Of a stretch of DNA of 20,030 nucleotides, positions 2,631-20,030 are shown piece by piece. The DNA is taken from NCBI GenBank assembly GCA_049301335.1, contig JBAQKV010000036.1:1-20030 (forward strand), in the 5' to 3' direction. The translations under genes were made by a program, and so were the position numbers. Numbering within the stretch: the stretch's first letter is position 1; every line of letters begins with the position of its first letter. Below the pieces are notes generated by a model, which was given only the letters and a program-made list of their open reading frames with translations, did not search any database and was not told where the DNA came from. Source of the DNA: Patescibacteria group bacterium. GTDB taxonomy: Bacteria > Patescibacteriota > Gracilibacteria > BD1-5 > UBA2023.

Positions 2631-2715
2631 GGAAAAACGGTTTGGAAATCACGGGGCGACGCCCCGTTTTAAGGAAATTCAGCCGGCACAGGATACGGCT
2701 TTCGCGCGCGTAGGC

Positions 2716-2745
2716 AAGAAAAAACGCCCCCGGGGAGGGGGCGTT
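2716..2745 (-). terminator. Rho-independent terminator (minus strand) ending the fabI-like / small-ORF transcript
   Basis: Perfect 9-bp stem aacgccccc (2723-2731) / gggggcgtt (2737-2745) with loop gggga. On the minus strand it is followed by TTTTTTCTT. Confidence 0.8.
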
Positions 2746-2766
2746 TCGTTGGTCCGGAGACCGGTT

Positions 2767-2946
2767 TTAGCCATTAACGTTCGGTTTGGGAACGGAAGGC
2801 GGCGACTCGGAGCAGCGGATGGCCGAAGCGTCTTGGGAGCCGGGGGTCGCTGACCCACGGTCTTTCTGAAGCGACGGAAAGTGTTTGGCGGCAGTAATGT
2901 CGCCCGACGGACGCTTTTGTCCGTCCTGGGGTTTCGTAGCTTCCAT
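2767..2946 (-). CDS. Small hypothetical protein (59 aa), hydrophilic and low complexity
   Basis: Not in the track; no listed ORF is shorter than 60 aa. ATG 2946-2944 is preceded by AAAGGAG with a 4-nt spacer. TAA at 2769-2767 lies about 20 nt before the 2716..2745 terminator. Codon choice (TCG, CCG, GAC, AAA) resembles the neighbouring genes. Product: MEATKPQDGQKRPSGDITAAKHFPSLQKDRGSATPGSQDASAIRCSESPPSVPKPNVNG. No family recognised. Confidence 0.45.
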   Translation of the reverse strand: MEATKPQDGQKRPSGDITAAKHFPSLQKDRGSATPGSQDASAIRCSESPPSVPKPNVNG

Positions 2947-2989
2947 GGCACTCCTTTCTGAGAAAAAAGAAGAACGAAACTGCTTCGCC

Positions 2990-3916
2990 TTACGCCTGTT
3001 TGGCGACCGGCTCGACTTCGGAAACGGTTTCCAGGTGGTGGCCTTGGTTCATGCCGACGGCATGGGTACCCAGGTCCACGTGGAAGATTTCCGCAGTGAC
3101 GTGCAACGCGGCGTCGGACACCATGAACGCGACCGCTTGGCCGACGTCGTAGATGTCGACGTGCGCTTTCTTCAGCATCGCCATGTCTTCCGACTTCTGC
3201 AGCAAGCTGTTGAAGCTGGGGAGACCGGAGGCGGCGCGGGTAGCGATCGGGCCCGGGGACACGACGTTGAAGCGGATGCCGCGGTGGCCGTGTTCGAACG
3301 CCAGGTAGTTGGACATGGAGTTCATACAGGCTTTCGCGGGACCCATGACGTCGTAGTTCTCGATGACGCGTTCGCCGCCTTCGTAGCCGATGGAGATGAC
3401 CGTGCCGCCGTTCGGCATCATGGACTTGCAGTTCTCGGCGATGGGGATGAGCGGATACGCGGAAGTGCGCATCGCCGTGTCCATGCCTTCGTACGTGGCC
3501 TCGGAAAGCGGATTCTTGATTTCGTTCTTGTCGGCGCCTGCGACCGAGAAGATGACGAAGTCGAGCGAATCCCAACCCGTGGAAGCACGCAACGAAGAGA
3601 ACAGGATGTCCACGTCGCTCGATTTGCTGACATCGCAAGTCAGGAGAGCCGCGACGTTGAATTCATGGTGGTTAATGAATTCTTCGCACTTCGAGAGAAC
3701 CTTCTGGTTGATCGACGCGACGGCCACTTGGGCGCCGTATGCCGAGAGAACCGCGAGGCAGCCTTGGGCGATGCCGCCCAAGCCCATGCCGATGATGAGG
3801 CCGCGTTTGCCATTGAGGTTGCGGGCACCGACGATCTGTTCGACCGAAGGCACGCCGTCGCCCTTGATGACGGAAAGGTGGGGGGTGTGAGCGTGGTTGT
3901 TTTGACCCTGAGTCAT
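2990..3916 (-). CDS. fabI: Enoyl-[acyl-carrier-protein] reductase (NADH), FabI-like SDR
   Basis: Track ORF, 308 aa. ISIGYEGGERVIENYDVMGPAKACMNSMSNYLAFEHGHRGIRFNVVSPGPIATRAASG parallels E. coli FabI [29 protein letters not shown]...GVRVNAISAGPIRTLAASG (Y-x6-K core). GKRGLIIGMG matches the nucleotide-binding turn and IYDVGQAVAFMVSD...HVD.G the C-terminal block. About 29-aa N-terminal extension relative to E. coli FabI. TAA stop. Confidence 0.85.
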   Translation of the reverse strand: MTQGQNNHAHTPHLSVIKGDGVPSVEQIVGARNLNGKRGLIIGMGLGGIAQGCLAVLSAYGAQVAVASINQKVLSKCEEFINHHEFNVAALLTCDVSKSSDVDILFSSLRASTGWDSLDFVIFSVAGADKNEIKNPLSEATYEGMDTAMRTSAYPLIPIAENCKSMMPNGGTVISIGYEGGERVIENYDVMGPAKACMNSMSNYLAFEHGHRGIRFNVVSPGPIATRAASGLPSFNSLLQKSEDMAMLKKAHVDIYDVGQAVAFMVSDAALHVTAEIFHVDLGTHAVGMNQGHHLETVSEVEPVAKQA

Positions 3917-4039: not shown

Positions 4040-4714
4040 CTACGGACGCGGGGCGTCGGAAGCCGCCTTCGCCTCCATGTCGGTCTTCCAAAGCTGTTTG
4101 TGGATCATTACCGTGTTCACCACGACGCCCAGCGCGCAAACGAGCGTGACGGCGGGAAGGACGTACTCGAAATACCCCGTCCCCCAATAGATGATGAACG
4201 TGTTGATGAGAATGAAGACGACCCTCGTTTCGGTGGGGCCGATGCCGTAATGGTAGATGCGGAACTCGTTCGTCGCGGCGAACGAAAGGAACGAGTTCAC
4301 CATGTACGCCCCAAGTACCGCCAGAAGGGCGAAGTACCATACTTCCAGACCGGCGGGCGAGAGCATGTAGCCCACGAAAACGAGCGAACAGAGAAAGACG
4401 TAGTCGAGGAAATGGTCCATGTAGAACCCCCATTTGACGAGCCCGGTATTCCTTTGCCGTCAAAGTTCCCCGTCGAAAAGGTCACTAACGTACTGGAGCG
4501 CGATCATGAGCGAAACGATCCAGAGCCAGCGGAGATCGGTCTTCACCGTCAGCCCCACCGCGACGTTGACGGCCGACCACGCGAGCGTCATGAACGTGAG
4601 GTGGTGGGTTTCGATCCACGCGGGAAGGCGCGGTACCGCCCAAAGCTTGAAATCGGTTTCGACCTTCGAGAGGACGGAACTTCCGAACTTCTTGTCTCAA
4701 GCGAACTTGGCCAT
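4040..4714 (-). CDS. CDP-alcohol phosphatidyltransferase family protein, with two in-frame UGA codons
   Basis: ATG 4714-4712, TAG stop 4042-4040, 224 codons. The track shows only the 3' part (4040..4420). My translation: MAKFA[UGA]DKKFGSSVLSKVETDFKLWAVPRLPAWIETHHLTFMTLAWSAVNVAVGLTVKTDLRWLWIVSLMIALQYVSDLFDGEL[UGA]RQRNTGLVKWGFYMDHFLDYVFL... The family signature D-G-x2-A-R-x8/9-G-x3-D-x3-D spans the second UGA (4460-4462). The first UGA is at 4697-4699. Confidence 0.85.
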
Positions 4715-5708: not shown

Positions 5709-6158
5709 CTAGCGTCCGCCGAGCGCGTATCCGGCAATCAAAAGCACCACGAGGCGGTACGATGCGGAAAGGGCGATTTTGGCGAACATCCATTTGCGGT
5801 CGTCGTTTCCCCAGAGGGTGGCCGTTACGTAGGTAGGAAGGACGAACCCCGCCCATACGAAGGCGCCCACGAGGTATCCGGGAACGTCCGGACGGATGGA
5901 GACGGCGTACGCGAGGGCCGTAACCATGGCCAGACATGCCGCGATTTCCGGAATGAGGAGCTTCCAAAGCCCCTGGGCCGCTTCTTCGGCGACTTTCTTG
6001 GGGATTTTTCCGTCCGCCCAGTGGATCTTCATCCAGAGTTTTCCGAAAAGCGGACCGAACCAGAGCGCTCATCCCGCCCAAGCGGCGAGGGAAATGCCGA
6101 CGATCGCCGGCCAATTGAGAGTATCCATACGAGTGGTGAAAAAGGATAAACGTGTCAT
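5709..6158 (-). CDS. DUF1761-like membrane protein, with one in-frame UGA
   Basis: ATG 6158-6156 is preceded by AGGAGG with a 5-nt spacer. Translation: MTRLSFFTTRMDTLNWPAIVGISLAAWAG[UGA 6069-6071]ALWFGPLFGKLWMKIHWADG... It continues in frame into track ORF 5709..6032. The xLWxGPLFGKxW block is characteristic of DUF1761. TAG stop. Confidence 0.75.
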
Positions 6159-6188: not shown

Positions 6189-7259
6189 TTAGTTCCGGAT
6201 GATTTCGAAATCGGGCAATCCGTAGAAGCCGGCGTACCTTCGGGCTTCTTTTTCGAGTTCTTCGGAAGCCACCGAAAAACCCGGGAGGATTTCCGGAAAG
6301 ATGACGACCCGGTCTTTTTTGAACGTCCGCTTCCAACTCCCCACGATCTTTCCGCCCTTCATGACGAGCGGAAAGAATATCCCGTTGGAAGTGAAAAGCT
6401 TTCCATGGTGCTCGACGTCGGCCACGGGCGAACGGTCCTTGTACCCGAGAAAGTATTCGTCAAAACCTCCGAGAAGCCGGATTTCCTCGGATTTTTGAGA
6501 AAATCCCCCGGTTTTCGAAAAGTAATACGTTTTTCCGTTTTCGTTCAACGTTTCGAGTTCGTTCGAAATCAATGAAACGGCGGTTTTGCATTCGGTTTTT
6601 CCAAGTCCGCACCACCATGCCAAATCGTCCACCGTTGCGGGGGAATGGCTTCGGAAATACGTCCTCGCGAGTTCGGCGAGTTGTTCATCGTGGGAAAATT
6701 CGCCGGATTTCGGTATCCATTCCTCCAAAAGGACGAACGTTTCTTCTTTTTCTGTGGGCGGACCGAAACAGATGAGTCCGCGGGTGGCGGCGTAGCACGC
6801 GAGGTGGTACGTCCACTGCGTTTGCATCGGGATTCCGGCGTCTTTCAGGACTTCGGTCAATTCCGAACGCGAGAGCGCTTTTCCTGAGCGAAGCGCCAAA
6901 TCCATGGTTTCGAGCGCTTTTTCTGCGTGAGCGTCAGAAATTCAAAGGAATTCGCGCCTTTTCGCAAAGCCCGAGAGCGTCTTCGACGCGCAGAGCGAAA
7001 GGAGCCAGCGGACGTTTTTCGGGTCGACGTAATGGAGCGTTCCACGCATCGGCCACGTGCGCACTATGGCACCGCGAGAACAGGCGTCGCGGACGGCGGC
7101 TTCGGTCGAACCCTCGATTCTCGAACCGATCGCCCACGTAGCCTGGGGAATGTCTTGCGCCTGCATGCAGCCGTAGTGCGCCACCACTTCTTCCGGAGCG
7201 GAAAACCGCGGCACGGAAACGGCGTGCGAAGCGAGGCGGCGGGAAAGGAAATCGGGCAT
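6189..7259 (-). CDS. Winged-helix DNA-binding protein of the YcaQ/AlkZ (HTH_42, former DUF1006) family, putative DNA glycosylase, with one in-frame UGA
   Basis: ATG 7259-7257. Track ORFs 6942..7487 (from its internal MPDFLSRRL...) and 6189..6905 share one frame, joined across TGA 6942-6944: ...FAKRREFL[UGA]ISDAHAEKALETMDLALRSG... The N-terminus has the family motif HYGCMQAQD (Q-x-Q/D). TAA stop. 356 codons, a typical family length. Confidence 0.75.
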
Positions 7260-7270
7260 GGGCGGAACGG

Positions 7271-7897
7271 CTAATGGTGGCCGCTCGCGCGGAGGAATAT
7301 TTTCAACAGGTTCAAAAACAGGTTGAGAATGTCCAGATAGAGGCTCATGGAAATGTCTATGGCGGCTCACCACGTCCGGTCTCACGCGAGTTTTTGAAGC
7401 CTGTTGAAATCGTAGACGAGGTACAGCACGAAAAGCATCGATCCGAAATACGGGAGGACGAGGTCTACGAACGACGATTTCCACCAAAACGAATTCAGGA
7501 GGGAGAAGACGATGAACATGACGAGCGCCAAGGACAGGTACCCCTTAAGGAAACCGAACTCCATGCCGGAGAACATTCCGAGCCATCAGGTTCCCACGGT
7601 CGCCGCCGCCGTACATACGAGCGCCTGGGTAATCGCGTTTCCCTGCCCGTTCTGCGAAATCATGTTCATCAACGGCCCCAGCATCCAGCCGATCCAGGCC
7701 GAAAAAACGACCATCAGCAAGATGTTCACCGGGTAATCGTTACGGAAAGCCATGGCCGCGAACAAGATCGCCAACGATATGAGAAAGCTCGCGATTTTGC
7801 CGACTATGACGTCTTTGTTGAGCGCGGAAACCGCGGCGGTGACGAGAAGCATTCCCCCGACGATGGAGAAAGTGCGGACGAAGAGGATGTCGAACAT
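7271..7897 (-). CDS. Bax inhibitor-1 / YccA family membrane protein, with three in-frame UGAs
   Basis: Track ORFs 7586..7897 and 7382..7576 plus an unlisted tail share one frame: ...AATVGT[UGA 7586-7588]WLGMFSGMEFGFLKGYL...YDFNRLQKLA[UGA 7382-7384]DRTW[UGA 7367-7369]AAIDISMSLYLDILNLFLNLLKIFLRASGHH, then TAG (7273-7271). The SLYLDxxNLFLxLL block is the family's C-terminal signature and lies beyond two of the UGAs. Confidence 0.85.
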
Positions 7898-9266: not shown

Positions 9267-9358
9267 GGTTCGCACGGGCTCTTCCCCGCCGCCGAATGCG
9301 GCTTCGGACGCGGAGGTCGCGAACCAAATCATTGGCCCACTCGAATGCTTCGCATCCG
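9267..9358 (+). repeat. Direct repeat copy A (~92 nt)
   Basis: By hand alignment it matches 10052..10144 at about 86 of 94 columns, including identical runs of 36 nt (aatgcggcttcggacgcggaggtcgcgaaccaaatc) and 18 nt (tcgaatgcttcgcatccg). Confidence 0.85.
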
Positions 9359-9443
9359 AACTTCGAATTCAAGCAAACTTTGACAATACGAAAAATTCTT
9401 TTATTAACGGATTACTAAACAAATACGAAAGAGAGGCGACACA

Positions 9444-9983
9444 ATGGAACCGGTTTTCAAAATCCCCACGATCGGCGATCAAGTCGAACTGACGGAAAAT
9501 TGGACATTCCCGCTCTTTGAAGAACGGCGAAACAAGCCCTTGTTCAAAATCGTGGCTCCGGAACGGAAAATAACGAGACACCACATGGAGGAGCTCGATT
9601 ACATCCCGTTCCTCCGAGCGAACCGTCCTGCGAACTGTCCGCACATATTCGAACCTGGCGGTGAAAATCCCGAGAATCTCCGTCAGATTTGGGACGAATA
9701 CAAAAAAACCGAGAAATGGAAAAACTTCTCCCGTCTTTACTGGGAAGCCAACCATGCGTTCCAGTTGAAGAATTCAGTATCGGTTACCCTTCCCGTCGGA
9801 ACTTGCCTGGAAGTCGACCGGATATACATCCGTCAAAAATCGGGAGAATTCGATTCGGTAACGTTCAAGATCCGTACCGAAGAAAAATCCCCGATGACCA
9901 ACGTCAGGTTCTGGGTGAAACGGAGTGATGCCAACAATATCGTTGGCATTTACGTCCGAGCAGACGAATTCAATATGATTTGA
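9444..9983 (+). CDS. Hypothetical protein (179 aa), orphan ORF in the AT-rich islet
   Basis: Track ORF. GAGAGG lies 7 nt upstream of the ATG. A possible promoter is TTGACA (9380-9385), 16 nt, TATTAA. The sequence is protein-like (MEPVFKIPTIGDQVELTENWTFPLFEE...) and no family is recognised. It ends at TGA 9981-9983 followed by the 10003..10033 terminator. If UGA is read through, the frame stays open to TAA 10170-10172. Confidence 0.6.
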   Translation: MEPVFKIPTIGDQVELTENWTFPLFEERRNKPLFKIVAPERKITRHHMEELDYIPFLRANRPANCPHIFEPGGENPENLRQIWDEYKKTEKWKNFSRLYWEANHAFQLKNSVSVTLPVGTCLEVDRIYIRQKSGEFDSVTFKIRTEEKSPMTNVRFWVKRSDANNIVGIYVRADEFNMI

Positions 9984-10051: not shown

Positions 10052-10144
10052 GGTTCGCCCACGGCTCTTCCTCGCCGCCGAATGCGGCTTCGGACGCGGA
10101 GGTCGCGAACCAAATCGTTGGTTCGCTCGAATGCTTCGCATCCG
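10052..10144 (+). repeat. Direct repeat copy B (~93 nt)
   Basis: See copy A. It folds on paper into three consecutive hairpins: CCTCGC...GCGGAGG enclosing CCGAA-TGCGGC-TTCGG; GCGAACCAA-ATCG-TTGGTTCGC (perfect 9 bp); CGAATGC-TTC-GCATCCG. Confidence 0.85.
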
Positions 10145-10184
10145 TCCTCCGTTCGAGCCCCGGCATCGATAACCGCAATGAATC

Positions 10185-10226: not shown

Positions 10227-10302
10227 TGGTGGGTTCGCCGGGGCTCGAACCCGGGACCTTGGCCTTAAAAGGGCCCTGCTCTACCGACTGAGCTACGAAC
10301 CC
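10227..10302 (-). tRNA. tRNA-Lys (anticodon UUU), CCA encoded
   Basis: Minus strand: GGGUUCG UA GCUC AGUCGGUA GAGC A GGGCC CUUUUAA GGCCA AGGUC CCGGG UUCGAGC CCCGG CGAACCC A CCA. It has a perfect 7-bp acceptor stem, D and T arms, and U33-UUU-A37 in the anticodon loop. It closely resembles E. coli tRNA-Lys. Confidence 0.93.
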
Positions 10303-10491: not shown

Positions 10492-10526
10492 GGCGAGGAT
10501 AGCACGAATACGCTCAAAAACTCGGA

Positions 10527-13500
10527 ATGAACACTTCAAAAAGACTCTTCTCGGAACGTTTCAAACGGTACGTTTCGTCCCTTCTCATTTTCGCCATCCT
10601 CTTCGGGCAGACGGTACACATCCCGCTCCTCCAGACGACCAAGGCGGCCGAAGCCGAATATCCCAACCTCGTCGCGGTCCTCGTGAACGAGGGTTCGTTT
10701 TCGCGCGACGTCAAAAGCAAGCTCGAACGCTACGGCGAAGACGTGCAGGCCAATTTGGCCGGCAGTCGCGTTTCGATCATCTCGATCCCCGACGACACCA
10801 CGCCCGAAAAAATCGCCGCGCTTCTCGAAAAGCTCTACTACGAAGGCGACGGCAACGGGCTTTCGCGCCTCGTGGGAACCGTGCTCGTCGGTGATTTGCC
10901 GATGCCGGTCGTCCACCGCGGAGAAAAAACCTTCCTCTCGGTTTTCCCCTACGTCGATTTCGTAGACAAGTCTTTCGTCTACAAGGCCGACAAGGGATAC
11001 TACGAGTATTCCGAAACCCCTGCCGCCTCCGACACGCCCGAAATCTGGCACGGCATCGTCCGTTCCAATACCGGCGACAAGGATAAGGACGAAGGGCGCG
11101 TTTCCGCCTTCTTCGACAAGACCCACGAATACTACCAGAAGACCGGCCGCTTCGAGACTTCCAAGTTCCGCATCCAGCCGCACGTCTTCTATTTCGACTC
11201 CTACCACGACCAGCTTTCGAGCAAGTCCTCCGAATGGAAGTCGTACCAGCTCATGCTCCAGTACGCCGAAGAAATCGCGTACAACCGTTTCAACAAGCAC
11301 CTCGCCAAGACCGTCTACGAAGCGTACCAGGGATACATGGGCGCCGACGTTCCCGACGCTTCGGGCACCGATATCGGGAAAATCCTCGCCGCCAATACCG
11401 GCGCGACGCTCAATTTCGACAGCGCCCCCGACGTCCAAACCCGCGAACCTATCGAACAGTCCCTCAAGAAATTCTTCCAGGTCCTCAGCGAAAAATACTT
11501 GGGCGACATCCTCCGTTACGTCCATAATGCCGGACGCTACGGAACCGGCAACGACGTGCGCGTCGACGTTCCGGCCATCATCGTCGGCAAGAGCGACGAA
11601 CTCATGAAGCGCTCGCTCAAGGACGCCAACACCACCTTCGAAGACGCGGTCGACGCCCTCGTGAAGGGCGGTTTGGCGCGCAACGTCGCCGTGGGCCTGA
11701 CCTACAAGGTCGACGACGCTTCCGCGACCGCCGGCACCGCCGCTACCGAAACCGCTCCGGCGGCATCGGGAACCGCCAAGACTTCCAGCCGCACCTACCG
11801 GAATTTCATCTTCGGCAAGCAGGGCTCAGAGATCAACGCGGCCAACGAATGCACCATCGTCCGCGGATCGACCCTCCCCATCGAAGCGAACCGCGGTTTC
11901 AACGCGTACAACACCCAGGGCGACGTTTCGCTCCTCCAGAAAGACCTCCCGTCCGGCCGTTGTTTCCCGGGGAACGCCGCTGCCGCCATGTCCTTTTGGG
12001 GAAACAATTCGCCCCTCAAGCTCGACGTCAGCCGAAGCGGAGAAGGAATCATGACCCTCATCGGCAACGCCTACGACGGCTATATCAAGCCGACGTTCGA
12101 CATGGGCGGCGCCAAGGAAATCAAACTCGACGCGACCTCTGGAAAGAACGAAAAGGGGCTCTCGGTGGCGTCTCCGCTCGACTGTACCGCGCAGAAGCTC
12201 TGGATTTCGGATCCGTACGTCGACACGTCGGAACTCGGCGGCAAGTCCGGCTTCCCGGCGGAACGCCCGGGCCAGCCTATCGCCTGTACTACCGACACCG
12301 TCGGAAACTCGCTCAAGATCGACACGTTCGAAAACTACTTCTCCAAGGGGTTCCCGAGCGAAACCTGTACCACCCACCACCTCCTCCTCGACGGCGTCGA
12401 AACCAAAAAGGACGGTTCTTGGTGCGACGCGGGCGACGGCAGCTATGCCCACATCGACAAGACCTACTCGTACAAGAAGGTCCTTTCCGTCATCGAACAC
12501 AAATCCCCTACCGACCGGGAATACGGCGAAGAACTCAAGAATTTCCTCACCCCGTCCCTCCCGGCCGATAAGGACCGCTACGTCGACTTCGTCAGCGCCA
12601 AGGGAAACTACGTAAAGATTTCGTATCCCAACCTCTTCCGCATCTCCTTTCCGGAAGACGAAGACCTCACCGCCGAAAAGGCGCAGGCGAAGATTAAGGA
12701 AGTCCTCGACGCGAAGAGCGCCGAAATCAATGCCTTGATAGCTTCCGAGGCCGGATCCGGCCCACTCTACGACGCGCTGAAAAACGGAGCGTACCCGTCC
12801 GGCACCAAGATCGACCTCTACGGCCAGCTGTCTTCCAAAGAAGAAATGCTCCAGTCGGTTGTCGACGCCGTGGTATGGAACAATCTCGCCAACGCGACCG
12901 CCAAGTACGCCTACGTGCTCGAACACCACCTCGACATCGACGGCAATTCCAAATACCCGATCGCGAGCCATAAAGAAGACTACGAAGTTTCCTACGTGGT
13001 CGGAAAGGGCGACGCCCGAAACATGTACGTCAAGCTCGACCCCGCCGCCAAGGACGGACCGGGCGCCGAAGTTTCGGACATCCTCCGGAAATCCGCCGAG
13101 CAGCTCGCCGCCATCGACGCTTCCAACGTCGCTTCGGGCGGACCGGGCGAAAAGGCCGAATTCAAATGCTGACCTCCGGAAGGGGTCGAACTCCCCAAGT
13201 GGATGCCCGCGATTTTCTGCTGGCTCGGCTCCATCATGCCGCCGACCATCAGCGCCGGAAACTGTTCGCCGAATTCTTCCGTCGACATCGCCGACCTCAT
13301 CAACAAGCACTACGGCGCCGACAAGAACGGCAACGGGATCCCGGATTACCAAGAAGATTCCAACGGCAACGGCATCATCGACGGCGCCGAATACGTGAAG
13401 GACGGGGCCATCAAACTCTCCGCCACCCCCAAGCGCGCTCCGTACCGCGAAAGCGTGGCGCTCGCCGCCATCCTCGAAAACAAGGACGGCGTGCAGGTGT

Positions 13501-16500
13501 ACGTCGACTCGGTCAACGACGTTTCGTTCGACGTGACCAAGGTCGTCGCCTACTCCGGCGGCATCGCGACCGAAAAATACCGTCGCGGCGCTTCCGGCGA
13601 GCTCGGCAATTCGGTCAACGTCAAAGACTACGTCAATTTCGGGCAAATCAGCGTGAAGGCGAAGGAAGGCAAGGCCACCTACGTGCTCACCACCAAGGAC
13701 CGCGACGCCGACGTCTACTTCGACGCCACCGTCGCCCCCCGCGACAAGGACGGCAAGGCCGCGTTCGTAAAAACCTCCAACGAAGCCAAACTCGAAATCC
13801 GCGCGGAAACCCTCCAAATCGGGCTCACTTCTTCGGGCTCGTCCATTTCGAGCTATGCCAAAGCCGGCGAATATTCCGAAGTCTCGTTCCCCATCAAGAA
13901 GATCGGAAAGGGCGGAACGGCGCTCGCCGTAGCATTCCCGGTCACCGTCCGCGTCACCGACGACGATTCCGGAAAATCCGTCGCCGACCCGGTCGTCACG
14001 AACAAGGACGTCTGGACCTACACCGGAAACCTCCTCAAGCAGTCCGCGAACTACCGTTTCGAATTCACCGATAAGGAAGGCGTCACCGGCAGCCAGGTGC
14101 TCACCGTTACGGCGGGAGCGGCCACCAAGCTCGAACTCGCCCCGTCTTCGACGCTCTTCGTCAAGAACGAAACCGTCACGGTGCTCGCCAAGGTCGTCGA
14201 CCAGTACGGAAACTACGCCAAGGGCGATCTCGTCGACCTCCACGGCAAAATCGAAGGCGGCGGCTACTTCCTCGAAAACAAATCGGACGAACTGAACCGC
14301 TCGATCGTCGAAGGGTTCACCACGTTCGAAATTTCCACGAGCGACGGCGGAAAAAACCTCAAGTTCTCCCTCGAAATTAAAAACCGCAACCTCTCCGCGA
14401 CCACTTCGTTCCGTTCGCTCGACTATGCCAAGGCGGTGGTCGACGTGGAAAACCGCGACAAGATCGTCGTAGGCAAGGAGCCGCACGCGGTACGCATCAA
14501 GCTCGTCGACGGCGACGGAAAGATCCTCACCGGCTTCGACGGCGTGGCGGCGTTGAACTTCCCGCAGCTTTCGGGCGTTTTCGATACCAACTACCTCGCC
14601 ATCAAGGACGGCCTCTCCACTACGGGAGCGCTCCTCTCGCCCAAGTACGTCGCGGGGAAGGACCTTAAGATCGAAACCTACGTTCCAGGCGTCAAAGACG
14701 TGGAAGGCAACGTCCTCACCGTCTATCCGGACGTTCCGATGCGCGTTTCCCTCGAAACCGAAAAACCGGCCATCGAAGCTCGGACAGGCGAAACCGAAAC
14801 CGTCACCGCCAAGCTCTTCGACCGCTACGGCAACCTCGCGTACAACCATGCCGACGGCGCGTACTCCTCGAAGTTCTCGATTCCGGAACTCTTCCATAAG
14901 TACCTCCGTTTCCCGGGCAAGGTCTTCGCGAAGGATTCCCAATTCAAAGAAGGCATCGCGACCGTCACGGTGGAAACCACCCGCCTCCCGGGAAGCCCGT
15001 ACGTCATCGCCGAAGTCGCTCCGGGTCTCGAATCGAATTCGTACTCTGTCACCGACAAGTCCGGCTCGACCGTCACGATTTCCGGATATTCCAAAAACGC
15101 CGTCGTCGTCGACAGCTACTACCTTTGGAACAAGGAAAAGGTGAACAAGCTCCAATACAACGGGCTCTACACCGTCCTCGCCGGCGCCGATTACGGAAAC
15201 TTCACCGAACGCGACTATTTGGGCGGCGAGATCCTCTTCAACCCGGATTCCCGTTCCATGGCGGTCACCACCCTCGTGAACGACGCCACCGAACGCCAGA
15301 AGACCTTCTCGGTCACTCCGGGCGGAAAAACCGAACTCCCGTCGGGCGATTCGCTCGTCACCGCCGAAGTTTCGTCCGTCGCCGGACGCACCTCGGTAGG
15401 GTTCTACGACCCCTTCTATAAGGAATACGTCGCGCGCGCGTATTTCAATTTCGCCGAAGGATCCGACCGCATCGCCTGCAAGAACGACGGACAAGAAGGC
15501 ATCGACAACTGCGAAGTCCCCACCGGAAAGCCGTTCACCCTCCTCAAGGGCTACGGCGACGCCACCGCCGTTTCGCAGGGCGGACTCGCGCTCGTCCTCA
15601 AGGGGGCACGCATCCTCGAAATCGACGCGAACGGGGCCGTTTCCGCGCTTCCGAGCGTCCGTCTCGAAGTCGATAAGGACAATTCCAAGAACCTCCTCGC
15701 CGTCAAAGTCGTCTCGAACAACCAGGAAGTCGGATACTTCGCCGCCAAGCTCCGCGCCGATTCCGTCGTCCTCACCAAACCGGCCGAAATCAAAAAGGCC
15801 CTCGCCGAAAATCCGGGCAAGGTCATCGTCGAAGCCGTTTCCTCGCGCTACTTCCCGCAGGACTCCTTCCTCGGCAATTCTTCCCGCGGGGCGAAGGGAA
15901 TCTCGTTCTACTCGAACCGCGACCTCGACGGTTCGAACGCCGACCGGGAAATGATCGGCAGCGCCGACAAATCCGGTTTCGAAGAATACCGCGAAAAACA
16001 GGGCGTCGGATGGGAAGGACAGAACAAGACCCTCCTCGAATTCGCCGGAGGAAGTTCGGTAGGCGAAGCCACCCGTTTCAATTCGACCTATTCCACCGTC
16101 AACTTGGGCGACCCGGTGTTCCGCGTCAAGCAAGCGACCAACGAAGGTTCTTACGACCGTACCCTCGGCACCCGCCTCATGGACGCCGTGGGCGACACCA
16201 TCGAAAGCTATAAGAAGTTCGACTTCAACGGCGACTCCTACGAAGACCTCGTCGTCTTCTTCGAAAGCGGAAAAATCCGCCTCTTCGCGAACCTCCAGGG
16301 AAGCTATAAGGACATGGGCTACCTCGCCTACGTCTCGGACGCCGGAAAGGCCCGCAAGGGCGTCGGCGATTTCGCGGGCGACGGATATTCCGACATCGCG
16401 GCCGTCACCAACAAGGGGCAACTCATCATCCTCGACAATAAGGAAGGCAAATTCACCCGCAAGGAAGCCGTCATCGTCGACGATAAGGACAACCTCACCC

Positions 16501-19500
16501 AAATCCGGGGAAAGATCGTCCAACTCGAAACCTACGACATGGACGGCGACGGTAAGACCGACCTCGTCGTTTCCGACGAATCGGGCGAACTGAACGTCCT
16601 CTACGGCAAAGTCCTGAACGGCGAAACCGTCTTCACGAAGAATATCCTCGATTCCGATCTCGCCCTCCGCCTCAGTTCCGCGGAACGTAGCGACGGCGGC
16701 GCGGTCTATTTCGACGGCATCCCGCAGTTGAAAAACCCCACCGTTCCCGACCAGGCGCGCTATCTCGCCGAATCGAAGAGCCTCGCGGCCGCCGGCGAAG
16801 GCGAAACCATCCCGCCGGAAGTCATGAGGGCTTCGGTCGACGCCAAGCTCTACTACGTCCATGCCTACCAGGTAGCGGTCGAATACACCGGCGGAACCTT
16901 GAATTCGCAGCTCGAAGGCCGCCTGTCCGGCGCCATCGGCAACGATCCGGAAAACCCGAGCTCGCCCAACACCGCGCTCCAGAAGCAGGTCATGGACGCC
17001 ATGAGCGGTGCCCAGGCGGCATCCGCGAGCGGTTCGTTCAAGACCTCCGGAACGTACAACGAAACCCGTTACAAGACCTTCCTCAAGTCCGAATTCGCCG
17101 AAGACCGCGACCTGCGCGTCGTAAAGACGATGAAGGACGTGAACTCCGATCCGCTCAAGAGCGAGGATCCGGTGGAAATCACCGTCACTCTCGGAAACTC
17201 GGGTTCGACCACGATGAAGAACGTGGCGTACCTCGATTCTTTCGACAAGTCGATCTTCTCCGAAACCGACACCCCGTTCTATACGGTGAACGCTCCGTCG
17301 TATTCGCACACGGGCACCCTCGACATGCTTCCCGATTCGAGCTACGACTACCTCTTCGACGGGTTCGACCTCCGTCCGGGGGAAACCGCGACTATCAAGT
17401 ATTCGCTCAAGACCAATACCGTCCAGTTCGGCAAGTTCGTCGTAGGGCAGCTCGAAACCGACGATACCTACGGCGACGTCGCGATGCGCGCCAACAATAT
17501 CTGCTGAGAAGCGATGACGCTCTGGAAGAGCACCACTCCGCATCCGCGAAGCTTTTTGAAGACCACGCGCACTTTCGCGAAGAACGAAGGCGACGCGGGA
17601 GGACTCGCCGGCAAGTTCATCGACATGAACGCCAATGGCCAACCCGACTACATCGACGTGCTTTCGGCGAACGTTCCGCAATCGGACCTCGCCGACATGC
17701 GGAAGTACTTTTACGACTTGAACGGCGGCGGAACTTCGTACGACGCTTCGAAATTCGGCATCCTCCTTTTCCGCGAAGTCGTCGACCAAGTCAACGGCAC
17801 CGTCAATTCCGGCAACGTAGAAATCGCCCGTCTCGTCGCGAACGCCCAGAACGACAACCTCATGCGTTCGGCGGAACCGGGAACCGGCGACGTCACCGTT
17901 CCGGTGGCAGCTTCGGCCGTGAATTCGACCTACTCCGATTCTTCCAAAACCCTTACGGCCGGCGCTCAGGCGAGCACCGCTTCGGCTTCCCTTCCGGAAT
18001 GCGGAACCGTAGGATACAAGACCGTGACCGCGCCGGAAGCCATCGGTTGGAAACAAACCGCCGACGCTCCGAACGGACAGCTCGAAATCTTCTTCTCCGC
18101 GGGTACCCATTCCAAGGACGGGGGAAAGACCGCCGAACCGTGCCGCATGGCGTTCTCGTCTTCGTCGAACCCGAAATGGGGATCGAGCAAGGTCATCGGC
18201 GAAGGATGGAAAATCCTCACCAAATACACCTACAACTCCTACGTCCTCGCCGCGAAGACCGCCGACTACAAGAATTCGTCGAGCAACGTTCCGGACGACT
18301 ACGACAAGAAGGGCAGCGACCTTTACTCCTACGACCAGACCGCGGGCGGAGCCGTCTCCATCGACGGGCTCACGAGCGGCAACGTCGAAGCCATCGAAGC
18401 GGGCATCGACGAAATCGTCCAAGGCCTCGGCTGCGGATTCGGCGGCGGCGCGTGCATCTCGATGCCGTTCAACTGGGCGCCCCTCGCTCCGGGTTCGGCG
18501 CCGTCCATCATGGGCTTTCCCGCCGGTTCGCTCGCTCCGAGCACCGGTTTCCCGATTTTCTCGGCGCTCACGGGCATGTGGTACGGACCGTACTGCTGAC
18601 CTTCCGTTTGGCCGGCATCGCCGCTCGACCTCTGAAAGACGTGCGGCGACATCGGCGCCGGCGGTTACCTCGGCGACAAGGGCGCGGCGAACTTCTTCCG
18701 CTTCTACATCACCCCCACGCTCACCGGCGCGGTAGGTATCGCGGCGTGTTTCGGCGTGGTTCCTGCCGTCATGGGCAAGGTTCCGCCGCAGGGCGTTTCC
18801 CCGGTCGTTCCGGGCGGAAACTGCATCGTCGCGGCGAAGCCGCTCCTCGGATGCAAGGACGACGGTTCCGACGGCGACGTCTCGAGCCAGGGAATGTCCA
18901 ATTCCGACGGGTTCTTCAACGCGAATTCGTGTACTCCGAAAACGGAAAAACGTCCGCTCACTACTTCCGAGCGCTCGTACGTACGTTCGTACGTACGCGG
19001 AAACACCAACGACAAGTCGATCATGAGCGGTCTCACCGCCGCCCTCCCGTTCATCAGCGCGGGACCGAGCGGACGCGGAAGCTCTCCGGTAGTCGGCATC
19101 GGCATGGCATCGGGGCAGGATCCGAATTTCGAAGTCGGCATCAACCCCACCGCCCTCAAGAACTTCGACGTGGGCAACATCCTCAAGATCAAGCTCGACC
19201 GAGTCAGCGCATTCCCGGAATTCATCATGGACTGGGTCAACCGCCAGACCGAAGAAGTCGTCAACAAGCTTACGAGCCTCCCCACCCTCTACATCATCCT
19301 CCCGGACTTCTCGAAGATCTTCGAATCCGGCTGGAGCGGTTTCGCGGGCAAGCTCAAAGCGAAGTTCGACAAGGGTTCCTCGGGATACGATACCAACAAG
19401 GATTATTCGGTAGGCAGCTCGAAATACGCCAAGGGAGCTTCGGACAAGGCCAATTCGCTCCTCGCCGACAATAAGGACAACATCAACACCGTCGGAAAGA

Positions 19501-20030
19501 ACATCTCCGGCATGCGCTCGGCCTACGAATTCCTTTCGAGCCTCCCGATCATCGTCTTCGAAACCGAGGTCGTACAAGTCGACATCCCGATGATTTCGGA
19601 CGAAGACGTCGACAAGGCCATCCTCGATTTCAACAAGACGAAACAGCAGTGGACCAAGGAGATCTCCGATAAGAAACAGTCGTGGTCGAAGGTCGCTTCG
19701 AAGGACGGCGTAAACGAGAAGGTCTTCGTGGAAGCCGACGCTACCGTCGCTTCCATCGACGCATGGGCGCGCTTCCTCGAAGACGCCAAGCGTTTCCCTG
19801 ACAAACTCTACCGCTACCTCACTTGGAAGCAGCGCTACGCCGAACAGATCCTCTGTAACGTCGAATCCATCGAACAGATGACCGGCGGCTACATCGCCGA
19901 AAACGGAAAACGCTTCCGCGCGTGGGTCGAGCTCTACGTGATGCTCAAGGCCATACTCAAATCCTGGCAGCTCATGGTGGACCTCTTCTACCAGCACACC
20001 AGCGACTGCGGAGTCTGCCGCAACGAGCGC
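10527..20030 (+). CDS. Giant secreted/cell-surface multidomain protein, at least 3168 codons, 3'-partial, with four in-frame UGAs
   Basis: Track ORFs 10527..13172, 13203..17507 and 17514..18599 are all in frame 0 and are separated only by single TGAs (13170, 17505, 18597). Frame 0 then stays open through TGA 18633-18635 to the window edge (translated by hand). N-terminus MNTSKRLFSERFKRYVSSLLIFAILFGQTV...AAEA is a signal sequence or anchor. Gingipain/C25-like segment: LVAVLVNEG...LVGTVLVGDLPMPV...IWHGIV. Ca-binding-like DKNGNGIPDYQEDSNGNGIIDG. Big-like repeats: ATKLELAPSS..ETVTVLAKVVDQYGN and ETETVTAKLFDRYGN. FG-GAP/VCBS repeats: FDFNGDSYEDLVVF, GDFAGDGYSDIAAV, YDMDGDGKTDLVVSDESG. CARDB/DUF11-like: PVEITVTLGNSGSTTMKNV...GETATIKYSL. 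The C-terminal region is Cys-rich and hydrophobic. Confidence 0.75.
18975..18998 (+). repeat. 12-bp tandem duplication inside the giant ORF
   Basis: tcgtacgtacgt / tcgtacgtacgc encodes SYVR-SYVR. Each unit contains the palindrome GTACGTAC. Confidence 0.8.

What the first reader, a model, noticed from the sequence alone, without database searches (positions are those of the whole stretch)
10527..20030. One giant (>3168 aa, still open) surface protein reconstructed from four standard-code fragments
With UGA as sense, frame 0 is uninterrupted from ATG 10527 to the window edge (9504 nt). The architecture, read from my translation, runs as follows. N-terminal signal or anchor (about 10527-10655). 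A segment resembling the gingipain/peptidase-C25 fold, with the layout LVxVLV...LVGDLPxP...IWxG, but no clear His/Cys catalytic dyad seen (about 10656-11250). A long unassigned Cys-containing region. Ca-binding-type D/N-G repeats (about 13300-13400). Invasin/Big-like beta-sandwich repeats (about 14070-15100). At least three FG-GAP/VCBS repeats (about 16210-16620). A CARDB/DUF11-like domain (about 17120-17420). A C-terminal region with Gly/Pro/Cys-rich and hydrophobic stretches (GGGACISMPFNWAPLAPGSAPSIMGFP..., LTGAVGIAACFGVVPAVMG) and a conserved-looking tail (...WVELYVMLKAILKSWQLMVDLFYQHTSDCGVCRNER). Inference: this is an adhesin-like giant protein of the kind proposed to mediate host or prey attachment in episymbiotic CPR bacteria. 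The combination and the C-terminal module are not something I can assign to a described family.
Basis: partly seen in the sequence, partly recalled or inferred. Interest (0 to 1): 0.8.

Follow-up and report, generated by a model that had tools for sequence, protein, structure and literature searches.

The report
Giant Gracilibacteria surface protein gene
The four "fragments" are one very large gene, about 72% of it inside the window, from a bacterium that reads UGA as glycine; it encodes a secreted giant protein of a widespread but uncharacterised family, so it is a new member of a known kind, not a new kind of thing.

Summary
From ATG 10527 to the window edge, the + frame has only four in-frame stops, all TGA. 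Orthologues are continuous across those sites, and TGA aligns with Gly codons, not Trp. This is genetic code 25.

The equally long antisense ORF that is open in the standard code is a shadow ORF.

The protein is a collinear member of a family of about 3,900-4,800 aa proteins in Gracilibacteria. More distant members in Peregrinibacteria carry SLH domains. Databases label the family "hypothetical" or "VCBS repeat-containing".

A complete orthologue at 74% identity has about 4,390 codons, so the window lacks about 1,227 aa. A divergent tRNA-Lys(UUU) sits upstream in 39 of 58 species loci.

Domain claims:
- The FG-GAP repeats are confirmed.
- Big/Invasin-like and DUF11-like domains are supported only through homologues.
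- The N-terminal "C25-like" region is a confident α/β domain. Its similarity to gingipain and caspase folds is weak, and it has no Cys. Residues 40-211 are homologous to an undescribed family of small secreted proteins that keep His and Gly-Cys motifs.
- The C-terminal module matches no described family and is found only in giant proteins.

The role in surface contact or adhesion is inferred, not shown.

The parts
10227..10302 (-). tRNA-Lys(UUU), the divergent upstream neighbour of the giant gene
   Evidence: ARAGORN and Rfam tRNA at 69.6 bits. The same arrangement occurs in L001, L002, L005, L007 and L078 and in 39 of 58 Gracilibacteria species loci.
10527..20030 (+). Giant ORF, 3,168 codons, truncated by the window edge. 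This is about 72% of an expected ~4,390-codon gene.
   Evidence: The complete 74%-identical orthologue L078 has 4,393 open codons ending in TAG. The last window residue aligns to its residue 3166.
13170..13172 (+). In-frame TGA 1 (aa 882), read as Gly in the conserved motif FKC-G-PP(E/D)GV
   Evidence: It aligns with GGT in L002 and L003, GGA in L001 and TGA in L007. Other homologues have A or S here and never a genuine Trp.
17505..17507 (+). In-frame TGA 2 (aa 2327), read as Gly in the conserved Cys-Gly motif
   Evidence: It aligns with GGA in L002 and GGT in L001 (codons read). L007 has Gly at this column in the protein alignment.
18597..18599 (+). In-frame TGA 3 (aa 2691), at a variable position
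   Evidence: Orthologues have I, V or L here. The frame stays conserved on both sides.
18633..18635 (+). In-frame TGA 4 (aa 2703)
   Evidence: It aligns with G in L007 and A in L002 and L001.
10527..10652 (+). Signal-peptide-like N-terminus (aa 1-42): a basic n-region, the hydrophobic stretch VSSLLIFAILFG, then TKA-AEA
   Evidence: It is the only strong hydrophobic segment at the N-terminus. AF2 gives a helix over aa 4-29 followed by a low-confidence linker over aa 35-43. Cleavage is inferred; no signal-peptide predictor was available.
10659..11906 (+). Conserved N-terminal domain (aa 45-460). The α/β core is aa 45-260, followed by a helical part. Residues 1-441 contain no Cys.
   Evidence: AF2 with 63 sequences gives mean pLDDT 78, and about 90 over aa 45-260. 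The invariant residues are P141, D144, F145, K148, W174, H175, K198, H200, P218, D224, Y240, E248, Y252 and R254. Foldseek finds no hit at E<=0.001. Gingipain R 1cvr has the highest probability, 0.97, at E = 0.049, and caspases also appear.
10644..11159 (+). Sub-region aa 40-211, homologous to the N-terminal half of an undescribed family of secreted proteins outside the CPR
   Evidence: hhalign of A6 against A8 gives probability 98.6% and E = 5.6e-16 over 159 columns. The family members are L066-L075. They have no Pfam or NCBIfam model.
11850..13301 (+). Cys-containing conserved region (aa 442-925), unassigned. It ends in the FKC-G-PPEGV...CWL motif.
   Evidence: Cys counts per 200 aa. The region is collinearly conserved in the family. 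It has no Pfam, NCBIfam or PDB sequence hit.
13320..13385 (+). Two D/N-G loops, DKNGNGIPDYQED and SNGNGIIDG (aa 932-953), possibly Ca-binding in the TSP3 style
   Evidence: Read directly from the sequence. TSP3_bac is called in one distant homologue, but its position was not mapped to this segment. The window protein gives no significant model hit.
14070..15101 (+). β-sandwich (Ig-like) repeat region (aa ~1182-1525)
   Evidence: The window protein gives only weak hits: Glyco_hydro2_C5 at E = 0.064 over aa 1214-1250. Homologous positions in P0043 and P0045 hit Invasin_D3 (8e-10, 1.1e-10), Glyco_hydro2_C5 and Big_1.
16209..16622 (+). FG-GAP/VCBS repeats (aa 1895-2032), with three DxDGDxxxD-type motifs
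   Evidence: Pfam FG-GAP_3 gives E = 7.5e-11 and 42.9 bits against a 26.9-bit cut-off, with its best stretch at aa 1948-2015. FG-GAP gives 31.4 bits against 22.1.
17109..17417 (+). DUF11/CARDB-like β-sandwich (aa 2195-2297), tentative
   Evidence: Pfam DUF11 gives E = 0.23 and 12.2 bits against a 24.6-bit cut-off. TIGR01451 is found in 5 of 11 homologues. DUF11 lies at the corresponding position in P0043 and P0045.
17694..18266 (+). Lineage-specific variable linker (aa ~2390-2580), rich in S, T and A
   Evidence: BLAST alignments to all but the closest relatives break here.
18324..20030 (+). Conserved C-terminal module, cut by the window edge (aa ~2600-3168). It has a Gly/Pro/Cys-rich part, long helices and a CxxCxNER motif. 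In orthologues it continues with FPKWPDI and an (LPx)n proline-rich stretch.
   Evidence: Family consensus. The profile finds 658 clusters at 50% identity. Every listed hit longer than about 3,000 aa (3,175-6,066 aa) carries the module roughly two-thirds along; shorter hits are fragments. There is no Pfam, NCBIfam or PDB hit. The AF2 model is poor, with pLDDT 47.
11826..19997 (-). Antisense shadow ORF (2,723 codons in the standard code). It is not a gene.

Best explanation
Shown:
- Positions 10527-20030 are the first ~72% of a single ~13.2 kb gene. The organism reads UGA as glycine (genetic code 25, Gracilibacteria-type CPR).
- The product belongs to a collinear family of about 3,900-4,800 aa proteins. 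Close members occur across Gracilibacteria. More distant members in Peregrinibacteria carry SLH domains.
- The gene is usually transcribed divergently from tRNA-Lys(UUU).

Inferred:
- The protein is exported through Sec, using an N-terminal signal-like segment with no other membrane span.
- It forms an elongated cell-surface structure. A conserved, Cys-free α/β head domain sits at the N-terminus; this domain is a non-catalytic relative of an undescribed family that keeps His and Gly-Cys motifs and distantly resembles the gingipain/caspase fold.
- Behind the head come Ig-like β-sandwich spacers, an FG-GAP (integrin-like) β-propeller and a DUF11-like domain. A conserved C-terminal module follows: a Cys/Gly/Pro-rich part, very long helices and an (LPx)n proline stretch.
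- Peregrinibacteria relatives end in SLH domains, which bind cell-wall polymers. The C-terminal end is therefore probably the cell-proximal end, and the N-terminal head the distal end that makes contact.
- The most likely job is cell-envelope-anchored contact with another cell or surface, meaning host or prey attachment. A structural, S-layer-like role is not excluded.
For: Gene model and code:
- The only in-frame stops are four TGAs.
- Orthologues L002 (67% identity), L007 (77.5%) and L078 (74%) are continuous across these sites.
- Across six orthologues, the residues opposite TGA are 45.6% Gly (background 7.0%) and 0.1% Trp.
- TGA 882 and TGA 2327 align with GGN codons.
- Other genes in the window also read through TGA: YetJ/BI-1, AlkZ-like, CDP-OH_P_transf and DUF1761.
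- Substitutions concentrate at third codon positions.

Family:
- The search found 60 homologues, and the architecture is collinear from end to end.
- 68 loci were found among GTDB species genomes. The best is 97% identical over the first 470 aa.
- The C-module profile finds 658 clusters, all in giant proteins or fragments of them.
- tRNA-Lys is upstream in 39 of 58 loci.

Surface location:
- The signal-like N-terminus is the only N-terminal hydrophobic span.
- FG-GAP repeats are significant in the window protein.
- Homologues carry Ig-like, DUF11 and SLH domains.
- Published work: giant predicted membrane proteins of up to 4,163 aa in Vampirococcus were proposed to mediate host attachment (PMC8080830). 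VCBS-repeat proteins of groundwater Gracilibacteria were detected by metaproteomics (PMC11452946).
Against: - No experiment or structure ties any member of this family to adhesion.
- Gracilibacteria members have no recognisable anchor. They lack SLH domains, a sortase signal and a C-terminal membrane span.
- The strong class-wide collinear conservation and fixed synteny look more like a core structural component than a fast-evolving host-specific adhesin.
- The C-module could not be modelled (pLDDT 47).
- The gingipain resemblance of the N-domain is weak: E about 0.05, TM about 0.2.
- The 3' end of this particular gene was not recovered.
Confidence: 0.72

Rival explanations
1. The protein is a core envelope or S-layer-like structural component. 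It would tile or brace the cell surface of Gracilibacteria and Peregrinibacteria rather than act as a host-specific adhesin.
For: - Peregrinibacteria homologues carry C-terminal SLH domains, which are typical of S-layer and S-layer-associated proteins.
- The family is collinear across class-level divergence, and one locus per contig was retrieved.
- Synteny is conserved, with tRNA-Lys upstream and a tsaB-like gene downstream.
Against: - At about 4,400 aa, with FG-GAP, Ig-like and DUF11 modules, the protein looks more like fibrillar adhesins than like lattice-forming S-layer proteins.
- Gracilibacteria members have no SLH domain.
- There is no evidence on abundance or lattice formation.
Confidence: 0.2
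2. The region holds four (or five) separate standard-code genes, or a decaying pseudogene, with each TGA a real stop.
For: Standard-code gene callers split the region. Several database entries for relatives are such fragments, for example P0061-P0149 and the L007 gene calls.
Against: - All the stops are TGA. There is no TAA or TAG in 9.5 kb.
- Orthologues carry GGN at these positions and carry TGA where the window has GGN.
- Conservation and third-position substitution bias continue across the TGAs.
- Housekeeping genes in the window need TGA read-through to reach their conserved C-terminal motifs.
Confidence: 0.02
3. The real gene is the 2,723-codon antisense ORF (11826-19997, minus strand), which needs no recoding.
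For: It is uninterrupted in the standard code.
Against: - Its translation is low-complexity and R/G/E/V/D-rich.
- The openness is explained by the absence of TTA, CTA and TCA codons in a sense frame with 80% GC3.
- Substitutions fall on what would be its first codon positions.
- Only the + frame was searched for homologues, and it has many.
Confidence: 0.01
4. The UGAs encode selenocysteine. Three of the four directly follow a Cys codon, which could suggest Cys-Sec redox motifs.
For: The contexts are KC-UGA-PP, IC-UGA-E and YC-UGA-P.
Against: - Orthologues have Gly codons at two of these sites, and I/V or A/G at the other two. They never have Cys.
- Cys-Gly is a conserved dipeptide in the family.
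- The 21 TGAs in L001 do not follow Cys.
- TGA is used in many unrelated genes of the window.
Confidence: 0.01
5. The protein is a secreted giant toxin or effector, in the manner of MARTX or Tc toxins. The N-terminal clan-CD-like domain would be an autoprocessing protease.
For: - The size is in the right range.
- The N-domain weakly resembles gingipain and caspase folds.
- It is homologous to a family that keeps His and Gly-Cys motifs.
Against: - Residues 1-441 contain no Cys, and the homology stops at aa 211, before the His/Cys part.
- No toxin, RTX or pore-forming domain was detected.
- The Tc-toxin hits for the C-module model are meaningless, with E>3 on a model of pLDDT 47.
Confidence: 0.04

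Closest known systems
Giant 'VCBS repeat-containing protein' / hypothetical proteins of Candidatus Gracilibacteria. Examples: P0012 (4,377 aa, GCA_010119145.1), ACD_2C00141G0001 (P0003, 4,232 aa, 'uncultured bacterium (gcode 4)') and P0002 (4,397 aa).
   Same: Homology is collinear from end to end at 25-41% identity, and 67-78% in L002, L007 and L078. They share the N-domain, the FG-GAP block and the C-module, use UGA as a sense codon, and have tRNA-Lys upstream.
   Different: Nothing qualitative. The window copy comes from a high-GC lineage (57% GC, GC3 80%). It uses only 4 TGAs in 3,168 codons, against 168-222 in low-GC orthologues. It has a lineage-specific linker at aa ~2390-2580 and is truncated by the window edge.
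Giant 'S-layer homology domain-containing proteins' of Peregrinibacteria and other Patescibacteria (P0038, P0043, P0044; 4,171-4,258 aa)
   Same: They share the N-domain, Ig-like region, FG-GAP block, DUF11 and C-module in the same order, at 21-31% identity.
   Different: They carry C-terminal SLH domains and stronger Big_1, Invasin_D3 and Glyco_hydro2_C5 signals. They use the standard code: L006 translates to P0038 with table 11. No SLH domain is seen in Gracilibacteria members.
Giant predicted membrane or surface proteins of Vampirococcus lugosii (Absconditabacteria), e.g. VAMP_16_20, 4,163 aa (PMC8080830)
   Same: Same size class, same genetic code 25 clade, and the same proposed role in host recognition and attachment.
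   Different: That paper gives only Pfam-level domain lists and no family definition.
Peptidase C25 (gingipain R/K) and other clan CD peptidases
   Same: The N-domain core has an α/β layout. It carries the motif pattern LVxVLV ... LVGDxPxP ... (E/D)IW(H)G ... FFDKTHxYY. RgpB (1cvr) is the highest-probability Foldseek hit, and caspases are also listed.
   Different: There is no Cys at all in aa 1-441 and no His-Gly / Ala-Cys dyad. There is no PF01364 match, even at E<=10 over 48 family members. Foldseek gives E = 0.05 and TM about 0.2. It is not a C25 member.
Undescribed family of 380-490 aa secreted proteins in Verrucomicrobiota, Bacteroidota, Lentisphaerota, Armatimonadota and a Thermoplasmatales archaeon (L066-L075)
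   Same: Their N-terminal ~160 residues are homologous to giant-protein aa 40-211, at hhalign probability 98.6%. Both share the W and F(F/L)xK(T/S)HxYY motifs.
   Different: They are stand-alone proteins encoded in the standard code. They keep an invariant His and an invariant Gly-Cys further along, both absent from the giant protein. They have no Pfam or NCBIfam model.
Fibrillar Ig-like/FG-GAP adhesins (invasin/intimin, integrin-like VCBS proteins) and the α-helix/polyproline stalk of streptococcal antigen I/II
   Same: An array of β-sandwich spacers plus a propeller. Long helices followed by an (LPx)n proline-rich stretch could form a stalk. The stalk idea rests on my own knowledge of AgI/II and was not tested here.
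   Different: There is no sequence or structure match to these proteins. The stalk idea rests only on predicted helices from a low-confidence model and on the motif pattern in orthologues.

Membership tests
Genetic code 25 organism (Gracilibacteria / Absconditabacteria) | In-frame UGA inside conserved genes, with TAA and TAG as the only terminators | tested here: met
   The giant gene has 4 in-frame TGAs. The BI-1-like gene has 3, CDP-OH_P_transf 2, AlkZ-like 1 and DUF1761 1, and their homology continues past each TGA. The complete orthologue L078 ends in TAG.
Genetic code 25 organism (Gracilibacteria / Absconditabacteria) | UGA corresponds to Gly (not Trp) in alignments with orthologues | tested here: met
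   Residues opposite TGA are 45.6% Gly (background 7.0%) and 0.1% Trp, n = 1,624. Reciprocal TGA-to-GGN correspondences are seen with L001, L002 and L007.
Genetic code 25 organism (Gracilibacteria / Absconditabacteria) | tRNA-Gly(UCA) present and release factor 2 absent | not testable with these tools
   The window holds only tRNA-Lys. The source genome was not retrievable.
Gracilibacteria giant-protein family ('VCBS repeat-containing' / hypothetical, ~4,000-4,800 aa) | Collinear homology over N-domain, middle region, FG-GAP block and C-module | tested here: met
   BLAST segments q5-3168 against P0002, and the same order in 35 or more members. E = 0 for 17 members.
Gracilibacteria giant-protein family ('VCBS repeat-containing' / hypothetical, ~4,000-4,800 aa) | Full length of about 4,000-4,800 aa as one ORF | tested here: inconclusive
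   The window ends at codon 3168. The complete orthologue L078 (74% identity) has about 4,390 codons, and the window end maps to its residue 3166. The 3' end of the window gene itself was not found.
Gracilibacteria giant-protein family ('VCBS repeat-containing' / hypothetical, ~4,000-4,800 aa) | Divergent tRNA-Lys(UUU) immediately upstream | tested here: met
   In the window the tRNA is at 10227-10302 (minus strand) and the gene starts at 10527. The same holds in 39 of 58 species loci and in 5 further loci.
Peptidase C25 (gingipain) / clan CD | Catalytic His and Cys dyad | tested here: not met
   No Cys in aa 1-441. The invariant H175 is not followed by a conserved Cys-bearing strand.
Peptidase C25 (gingipain) / clan CD | Match to the family sequence model (PF01364) or to solved gingipain sequences | tested here: not met
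   No PF01364 hit at E<=10 in 48 members. No PDB sequence hit with the single sequence or with the profile.
Peptidase C25 (gingipain) / clan CD | Caspase/gingipain-like α/β fold | tested here: inconclusive
   The AF2 model has pLDDT 78. Foldseek gives 1cvr at probability 0.97, E = 0.049, TM 0.18-0.19 over 144 columns. 6i9a and caspases 1, 3 and 6 appear at E = 0.05-0.2. Nothing reaches E<=0.001.
FG-GAP / VCBS repeat proteins | Pfam FG-GAP_3 or FG-GAP above the gathering score | tested here: met
   PF13517 gives 42.9 bits against 26.9. PF01839 gives 31.4 bits against 22.1.
DUF11 / CARDB-type β-sandwich | Match to PF01345 or TIGR01451 above the cut-off | tested here: inconclusive
   The window protein gives 12.2 bits against 24.6, E = 0.23, and no NCBIfam hit. 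TIGR01451 is found in 5 of 11 homologues. Weak DUF11 hits lie at the corresponding place in P0043 and P0045.
Bacterial Ig-like (Big_1 / Invasin_D3) | Match to PF02369 or PF09134 above the cut-off | tested here: inconclusive
   There is none in the window protein; Glyco_hydro2_C5 gives only 13.6 bits against 32. Invasin_D3 gives 39.6 and 42.3 bits against 33 at the homologous positions of P0043 and P0045.
SLH-anchored S-layer(-associated) proteins | SLH domains (PF00395) | tested here: not met
   No SLH domain in the window part or in the four full-length Gracilibacteria-type members scanned (P0002, P0003, P0011, P0012). SLH occurs in 5 of 11 members scanned, including the Peregrinibacteria/Patescibacteria members P0038, P0043 and P0044. 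The missing C-terminus of the window gene could not be examined.

The most novel reading that the evidence does not exclude
This family may be the conserved cell-contact organelle of the whole Gracilibacteria/Peregrinibacteria clade, built from two modules that are new to structural biology. The first is a distal head: a catalytically dead descendant of an undescribed clan-CD-like (His and Gly-Cys) family that still exists as free secreted proteins in Verrucomicrobiota, Bacteroidota and archaea. The second is a C-terminal module in which very long helices pack against an (LPx)n polyproline strand, forming a stalk or anchor of a new type.
Probability: 0.2. Interest if true: 0.7.

Novelty: new member of a known kind. 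Interest (0 to 1): 0.4.

Why it matters
Episymbiotic and predatory CPR bacteria must hold on to other cells, but the molecules that do this are essentially unknown. This gene belongs to a family that is nearly universal in code-25 Gracilibacteria, with relatives in Peregrinibacteria. Standard gene callers chop it into pieces, so it is under-counted in databases.

This analysis gives three concrete handles for structural and cell-biological work in culturable relatives:
- It defines the family: about 4,400 aa, tRNA-Lys synteny and fixed domain order.
- It shows that the N-terminal head is a Cys-free relative of an undescribed putative peptidase-like family.
- It shows that the C-terminal module exists only in these giant proteins.

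For the window itself the result is a sound annotation, not a discovery.

Tried and rejected
- Exact look-up of the 13203-17507 fragment in public assemblies found nothing.
- An exact 60-mer from the window end found nothing in metagenome contigs. The protein-guided metagenome scan returned only two short, distant contigs. The true 3' end was therefore not recovered.
- AF2 of the complete C-module (P0002 residues 2610-3420, 18 sequences) gave pLDDT 47. Its Foldseek hits (E>0.6; Tc toxins, BAR/ESCRT helices) are meaningless.
- Single-sequence and profile searches of the N-domain, the C-module and the stand-alone family against PDB sequences gave only chance-level hits.
- Pfam at E<=10 on 48 N-domain fragments gave only noise and no Peptidase_C25 hit.
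- NCBIfam found nothing significant on the four window fragments.
- Rfam found only the tRNA, so the 89-nt repeat is not a known RNA.
- The selenocysteine, antisense-gene, pseudogene and toxin readings were considered and rejected (see the rival explanations).
- The two small genes downstream of orthologues are a tsaB-like gene (Pfam TsaD, weak, in L078; my reading of the L001 and L005 sequences) and a small protein with two hydrophobic segments that looks PH-like (my reading of the sequence). They look like housekeeping neighbours rather than partners.
- A literature search for a description of the SLH-bearing Peregrinibacteria giant proteins found nothing relevant.

Full report
**1. The observation**

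The window is 57% GC. In the frame of ATG 10527 the nearest upstream stop is TAG at 10500. Downstream there are exactly four in-frame stops, all TGA (13170, 17505, 18597, 18633). There is no TAA or TAG before the window ends at 20030, giving 3,168 codons. Standard-code ORF listing shows the pieces 10527-13172, 13203-17507 and 17514-18599, plus a final piece that runs off the window.

**2. The antisense ORF**

Taken alone, that is the more economical reading, so I tested it. It fails:
- The antisense translation is monotonously R/G/E/V/D-rich, whereas the + translation looks like a real protein.
- The + frame has GC3 of 80% and contains 0 TTA, 0 CTA and only 2 TCA codons. These are the three codons that would make stops on the other strand.
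- Differences from orthologues fall mainly on + frame third positions: 34/32/200 against L008 and 566/373/1275 against L007.
- Only the + translation was searched for homologues, and it has them.

The antisense ORF is a shadow ORF.

**3. One gene and genetic code 25**

A search with the whole translation found 60 proteins, 17 of them with E = 0. Most are 3,900-4,800 aa long. They align collinearly from the N-terminus to the window end.

I fetched the DNA of several orthologues:
- L002 is 67% identical and has a single TGA in 3,888 open codons.
- L007 is 77.5% identical and has 13 TGAs.
- L001 (P0002) is 41% identical and has 21 TGAs.
- L004 and L005 have 168 and 222 TGAs.

None has a TAA or TAG inside the gene.

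At the window's TGA sites the orthologues show:
- TGA 882: GGT or GGA.
- TGA 2327: GGA or GGT.
- TGA 2703: G or A.
- TGA 2691: I or V.

Conversely, TGAs in the orthologues sit opposite GGN codons in the window. Over six orthologues, the residues opposite TGA are 45.6% Gly against a 7.0% background, and 0.1% Trp (n = 1,624). This is code 25 (UGA = Gly), not code 4.

Three of the four window TGAs follow Cys. This is explained by conserved Cys-Gly dipeptides, not by selenocysteine.

Other genes of the window also need TGA read-through to reach their conserved ends. These are a YetJ/BI-1 homologue with three TGAs before the SLYLD..NLF..LL motif, an AlkZ-like protein matched over the whole Pfam model, a CDP-alcohol phosphatidyltransferase and a DUF1761 protein.

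**4. How much of the gene is missing**

The window's own 3' end could not be recovered. A complete orthologue, L078 (JGI 3300037047), is 74% identical, 56% GC and has 15 TGAs. It is open for 4,393 codons, ends in TAG, and is followed by a tsaB-like gene. The last residue of the window aligns to its residue 3166. The window therefore holds about 72% of a gene of roughly 4,390 codons.

**5. Family, distribution and synteny**

Database names for members include:
- [quoted passage not shown].
- [quoted passage not shown].
- For the most distant members, [quoted passage not shown].

A scan of one genome per GTDB species with a single N-domain motif gave 58 CPR loci. The best is 97% identical over the first 470 aa. 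The records are labelled Gracilibacteria, Patescibacteria or "Peribacteria".

A tRNA-Lys(UUU) on the opposite strand lies a few hundred bases upstream of the gene in 39 of these 58 loci, and also in L001, L002, L005, L007 and L078. That is the same arrangement as in the window (10227-10302 and 10527).

A profile of the C-terminal module found 658 clusters at 50% identity among 1.84 billion representatives, 359 of them at E<=1e-30. Every listed hit longer than about 3,000 aa (3,175-6,066 aa) carries the module roughly two-thirds of the way along; shorter hits are fragments. Many other database entries are fragments produced by standard-code gene calling.

**6.

(a) N-terminal signal or anchor. 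Residues 16-34 are the only strong hydrophobic segment at the N-terminus. A basic stretch precedes them, and TKA-AEA follows. A cleaved Sec signal is likely but could not be predicted formally.

(b) The "C25-like" segment:
- AF2 with 63 sequences gave a usable model, with mean pLDDT 78 and about 90 over aa 45-260. It shows alternating β-strands and helices.
- Foldseek against the PDB found nothing at E<=0.001. The hit with the highest probability is gingipain R (1cvr): probability 0.97, E = 0.049, 144 columns, TM about 0.19. Gingipain K and caspases 1, 3 and 6 are also on the list.
- At the sequence level there is no Peptidase_C25 match, even at E<=10 in 48 family members, and no PDB sequence hit.
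- Residues 1-441 contain no cysteine.

Membership of C25 is rejected.

An unexpected result came from the genome scan. It also picked up 380-490 aa secreted proteins in Verrucomicrobiota, Bacteroidota, Lentisphaerota, Armatimonadota and a Thermoplasmatales archaeon (L066-L075). Their N-terminal ~160 residues are homologous to giant-protein residues 40-211 (hhalign probability 98.6%, E = 5.6e-16). Further along they keep an invariant His and an invariant Gly-Cys, which the giant protein lacks. That family has no Pfam or NCBIfam model. The giant protein's head therefore looks like a non-catalytic relative of an undescribed, possibly peptidase-like family. This last step is inference.

(c) Cys-containing region, aa ~442-925. 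It is conserved in the family but unassigned.

(d) D/N-G loops at aa 932-953. They are present in the sequence. No model confirms them.

(e) Big/Invasin-like repeats:
- The window protein gives only sub-threshold hits (Glyco_hydro2_C5 at E = 0.064).
- The homologous positions of the Peregrinibacteria members P0043 and P0045 match Invasin_D3 at 8e-10 and 1.1e-10, and also Glyco_hydro2_C5 and Big_1.

(f) FG-GAP repeats. Confirmed: PF13517 at E = 7.5e-11 and PF01839 at 1.7e-7, both above their gathering scores, with the best FG-GAP_3 stretch at aa 1948-2015.

(g) DUF11. Tentative: E = 0.23 in the window protein, and TIGR01451 in 5 of 11 homologues.

(h) C-terminal module, aa ~2600 onward:
- It is highly conserved, with invariant Cys and Pro residues and the CxxCxNER motif at the very window edge.
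- In orthologues it continues with FPKWPDI and a long (LPx)n proline-rich stretch.
- It has no Pfam, NCBIfam or PDB relative.
- AF2 on the complete module of P0002 failed (pLDDT 47). Only a set of very long helices reached moderate confidence, and the fold search on that model is meaningless.
- A helix-plus-polyproline stalk, as in streptococcal antigen I/II, is a thought based on my own knowledge, not a result.

(i) Between aa ~2390 and ~2580 lies a lineage-specific linker where alignments to all but the closest relatives break.

**7. How it most likely works**

Shown:
- It is a single exported-looking giant protein of a conserved, vertically inherited family.
- Apart from the signal-like segment, only one weak, non-conserved hydrophobic stretch is found, at aa 2727-2752; it is absent in P0002.
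- Full-length Gracilibacteria members have no sortase-type or membrane-anchor ending.
- Peregrinibacteria members have C-terminal SLH domains.

Inferred: the protein is displayed on the cell surface with its C-terminal end near the wall. The Ig-like, propeller and DUF11 array forms an extended shaft, and the conserved head sits at the far end, where it contacts another cell or a surface.

This fits published proposals. The membrane proteome of Vampirococcus is enriched in giant proteins of up to 4,163 aa, thought to form its fibrous surface and bind the host (PMC8080830). VCBS-repeat proteins of groundwater Gracilibacteria were detected in metaproteomes (PMC11452946). Whether those particular proteins are orthologues was not testable here.

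The main functional rival is a core structural, S-layer-like role. Class-wide collinearity, fixed synteny and the SLH-bearing relatives favour that reading.

**8. Novelty and verdict**

The gene model, the genetic code and the general kind of protein are all things a CPR specialist would expect. The family is already in public databases, although it is uncharacterised and often fragmented. It is a new member of a known kind.

The parts with some real interest are at the family level:
- the Cys-free head related to an undescribed family that keeps His and Gly-Cys motifs;
- the C-terminal module found only in giant proteins;
- the near-universal pairing with tRNA-Lys.

Interest is 0.4. Confidence in the gene model is very high. 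Confidence in the surface-contact function is moderate.

Noticed in passing
window 11826-19997 (minus strand): A 2,723-codon ORF is open in the standard code, exactly antisense to the giant gene. It is a shadow ORF caused by the absence of TTA, CTA and TCA codons in a sense frame with 80% GC3. It could mislead standard-code gene callers.
   Followed up: yes
window 9277-9365 and 10063-10151: An 89-nt direct repeat (91% identity) brackets an orphan ORF at 9444-9983, which continues to 10172 if TGA is read as sense. It lies next to tRNA-Lys. There is no Rfam or Pfam match. It may be a small insertion or a remnant of an integration at the tRNA.
   Followed up: partly
L066-L075 (Verrucomicrobiota, Bacteroidota, Lentisphaerota, Armatimonadota, Thermoplasmatales archaeon): An undescribed family of 380-490 aa secreted proteins. 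Their N-terminal half is homologous to aa 40-211 of the giant protein. They carry an invariant His and an invariant Gly-Cys that could be a clan-CD-like catalytic dyad. They have no Pfam or NCBIfam model. In an Alistipes contig (L073) the domain is fused behind a DUF5054 domain.
   Followed up: partly
window 10227-10302, and loci L001, L002, L005, L007-L063 and L078: tRNA-Lys(UUU) lies on the opposite strand a few hundred bases upstream of the giant gene in 39 of 58 Gracilibacteria species loci. This is unusually stable synteny for a surface-protein gene. A tsaB-like gene and a small protein with two hydrophobic segments follow the gene in L001, L005 and L078.
   Followed up: partly
window 4040-4714, 5709-6158, 6189-7259 and 7271-7897 (all minus strand): Four further genes contain in-frame TGA: CDP-alcohol phosphatidyltransferase (2), DUF1761 (1), AlkZ-like DNA glycosylase (1) and a BI-1/YetJ homologue (3). 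The cyclophilin gene (2118-2630), the FabI-like gene (2990-3916) and the CAP/DPBB secreted-protein gene (1-2108) contain none.
   Followed up: yes
window 10527-20030 compared with L004 and L005: TGA use tracks GC content. The window copy has 4 TGAs in 3,168 codons (1.4% of Gly codons). The low-GC orthologues have 168-222 TGAs in about 4,300 codons. High-GC code-25 lineages can therefore pass for standard-code genomes with a few 'broken' genes.
   Followed up: partly
window 1-2108 (minus strand): A secreted protein of more than 702 aa that runs off the left edge of the window. It has a DPBB_1 (lytic transglycosylase-like) domain and a C-terminal CAP domain, and may be another envelope or host-interaction factor.
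   Followed up: no
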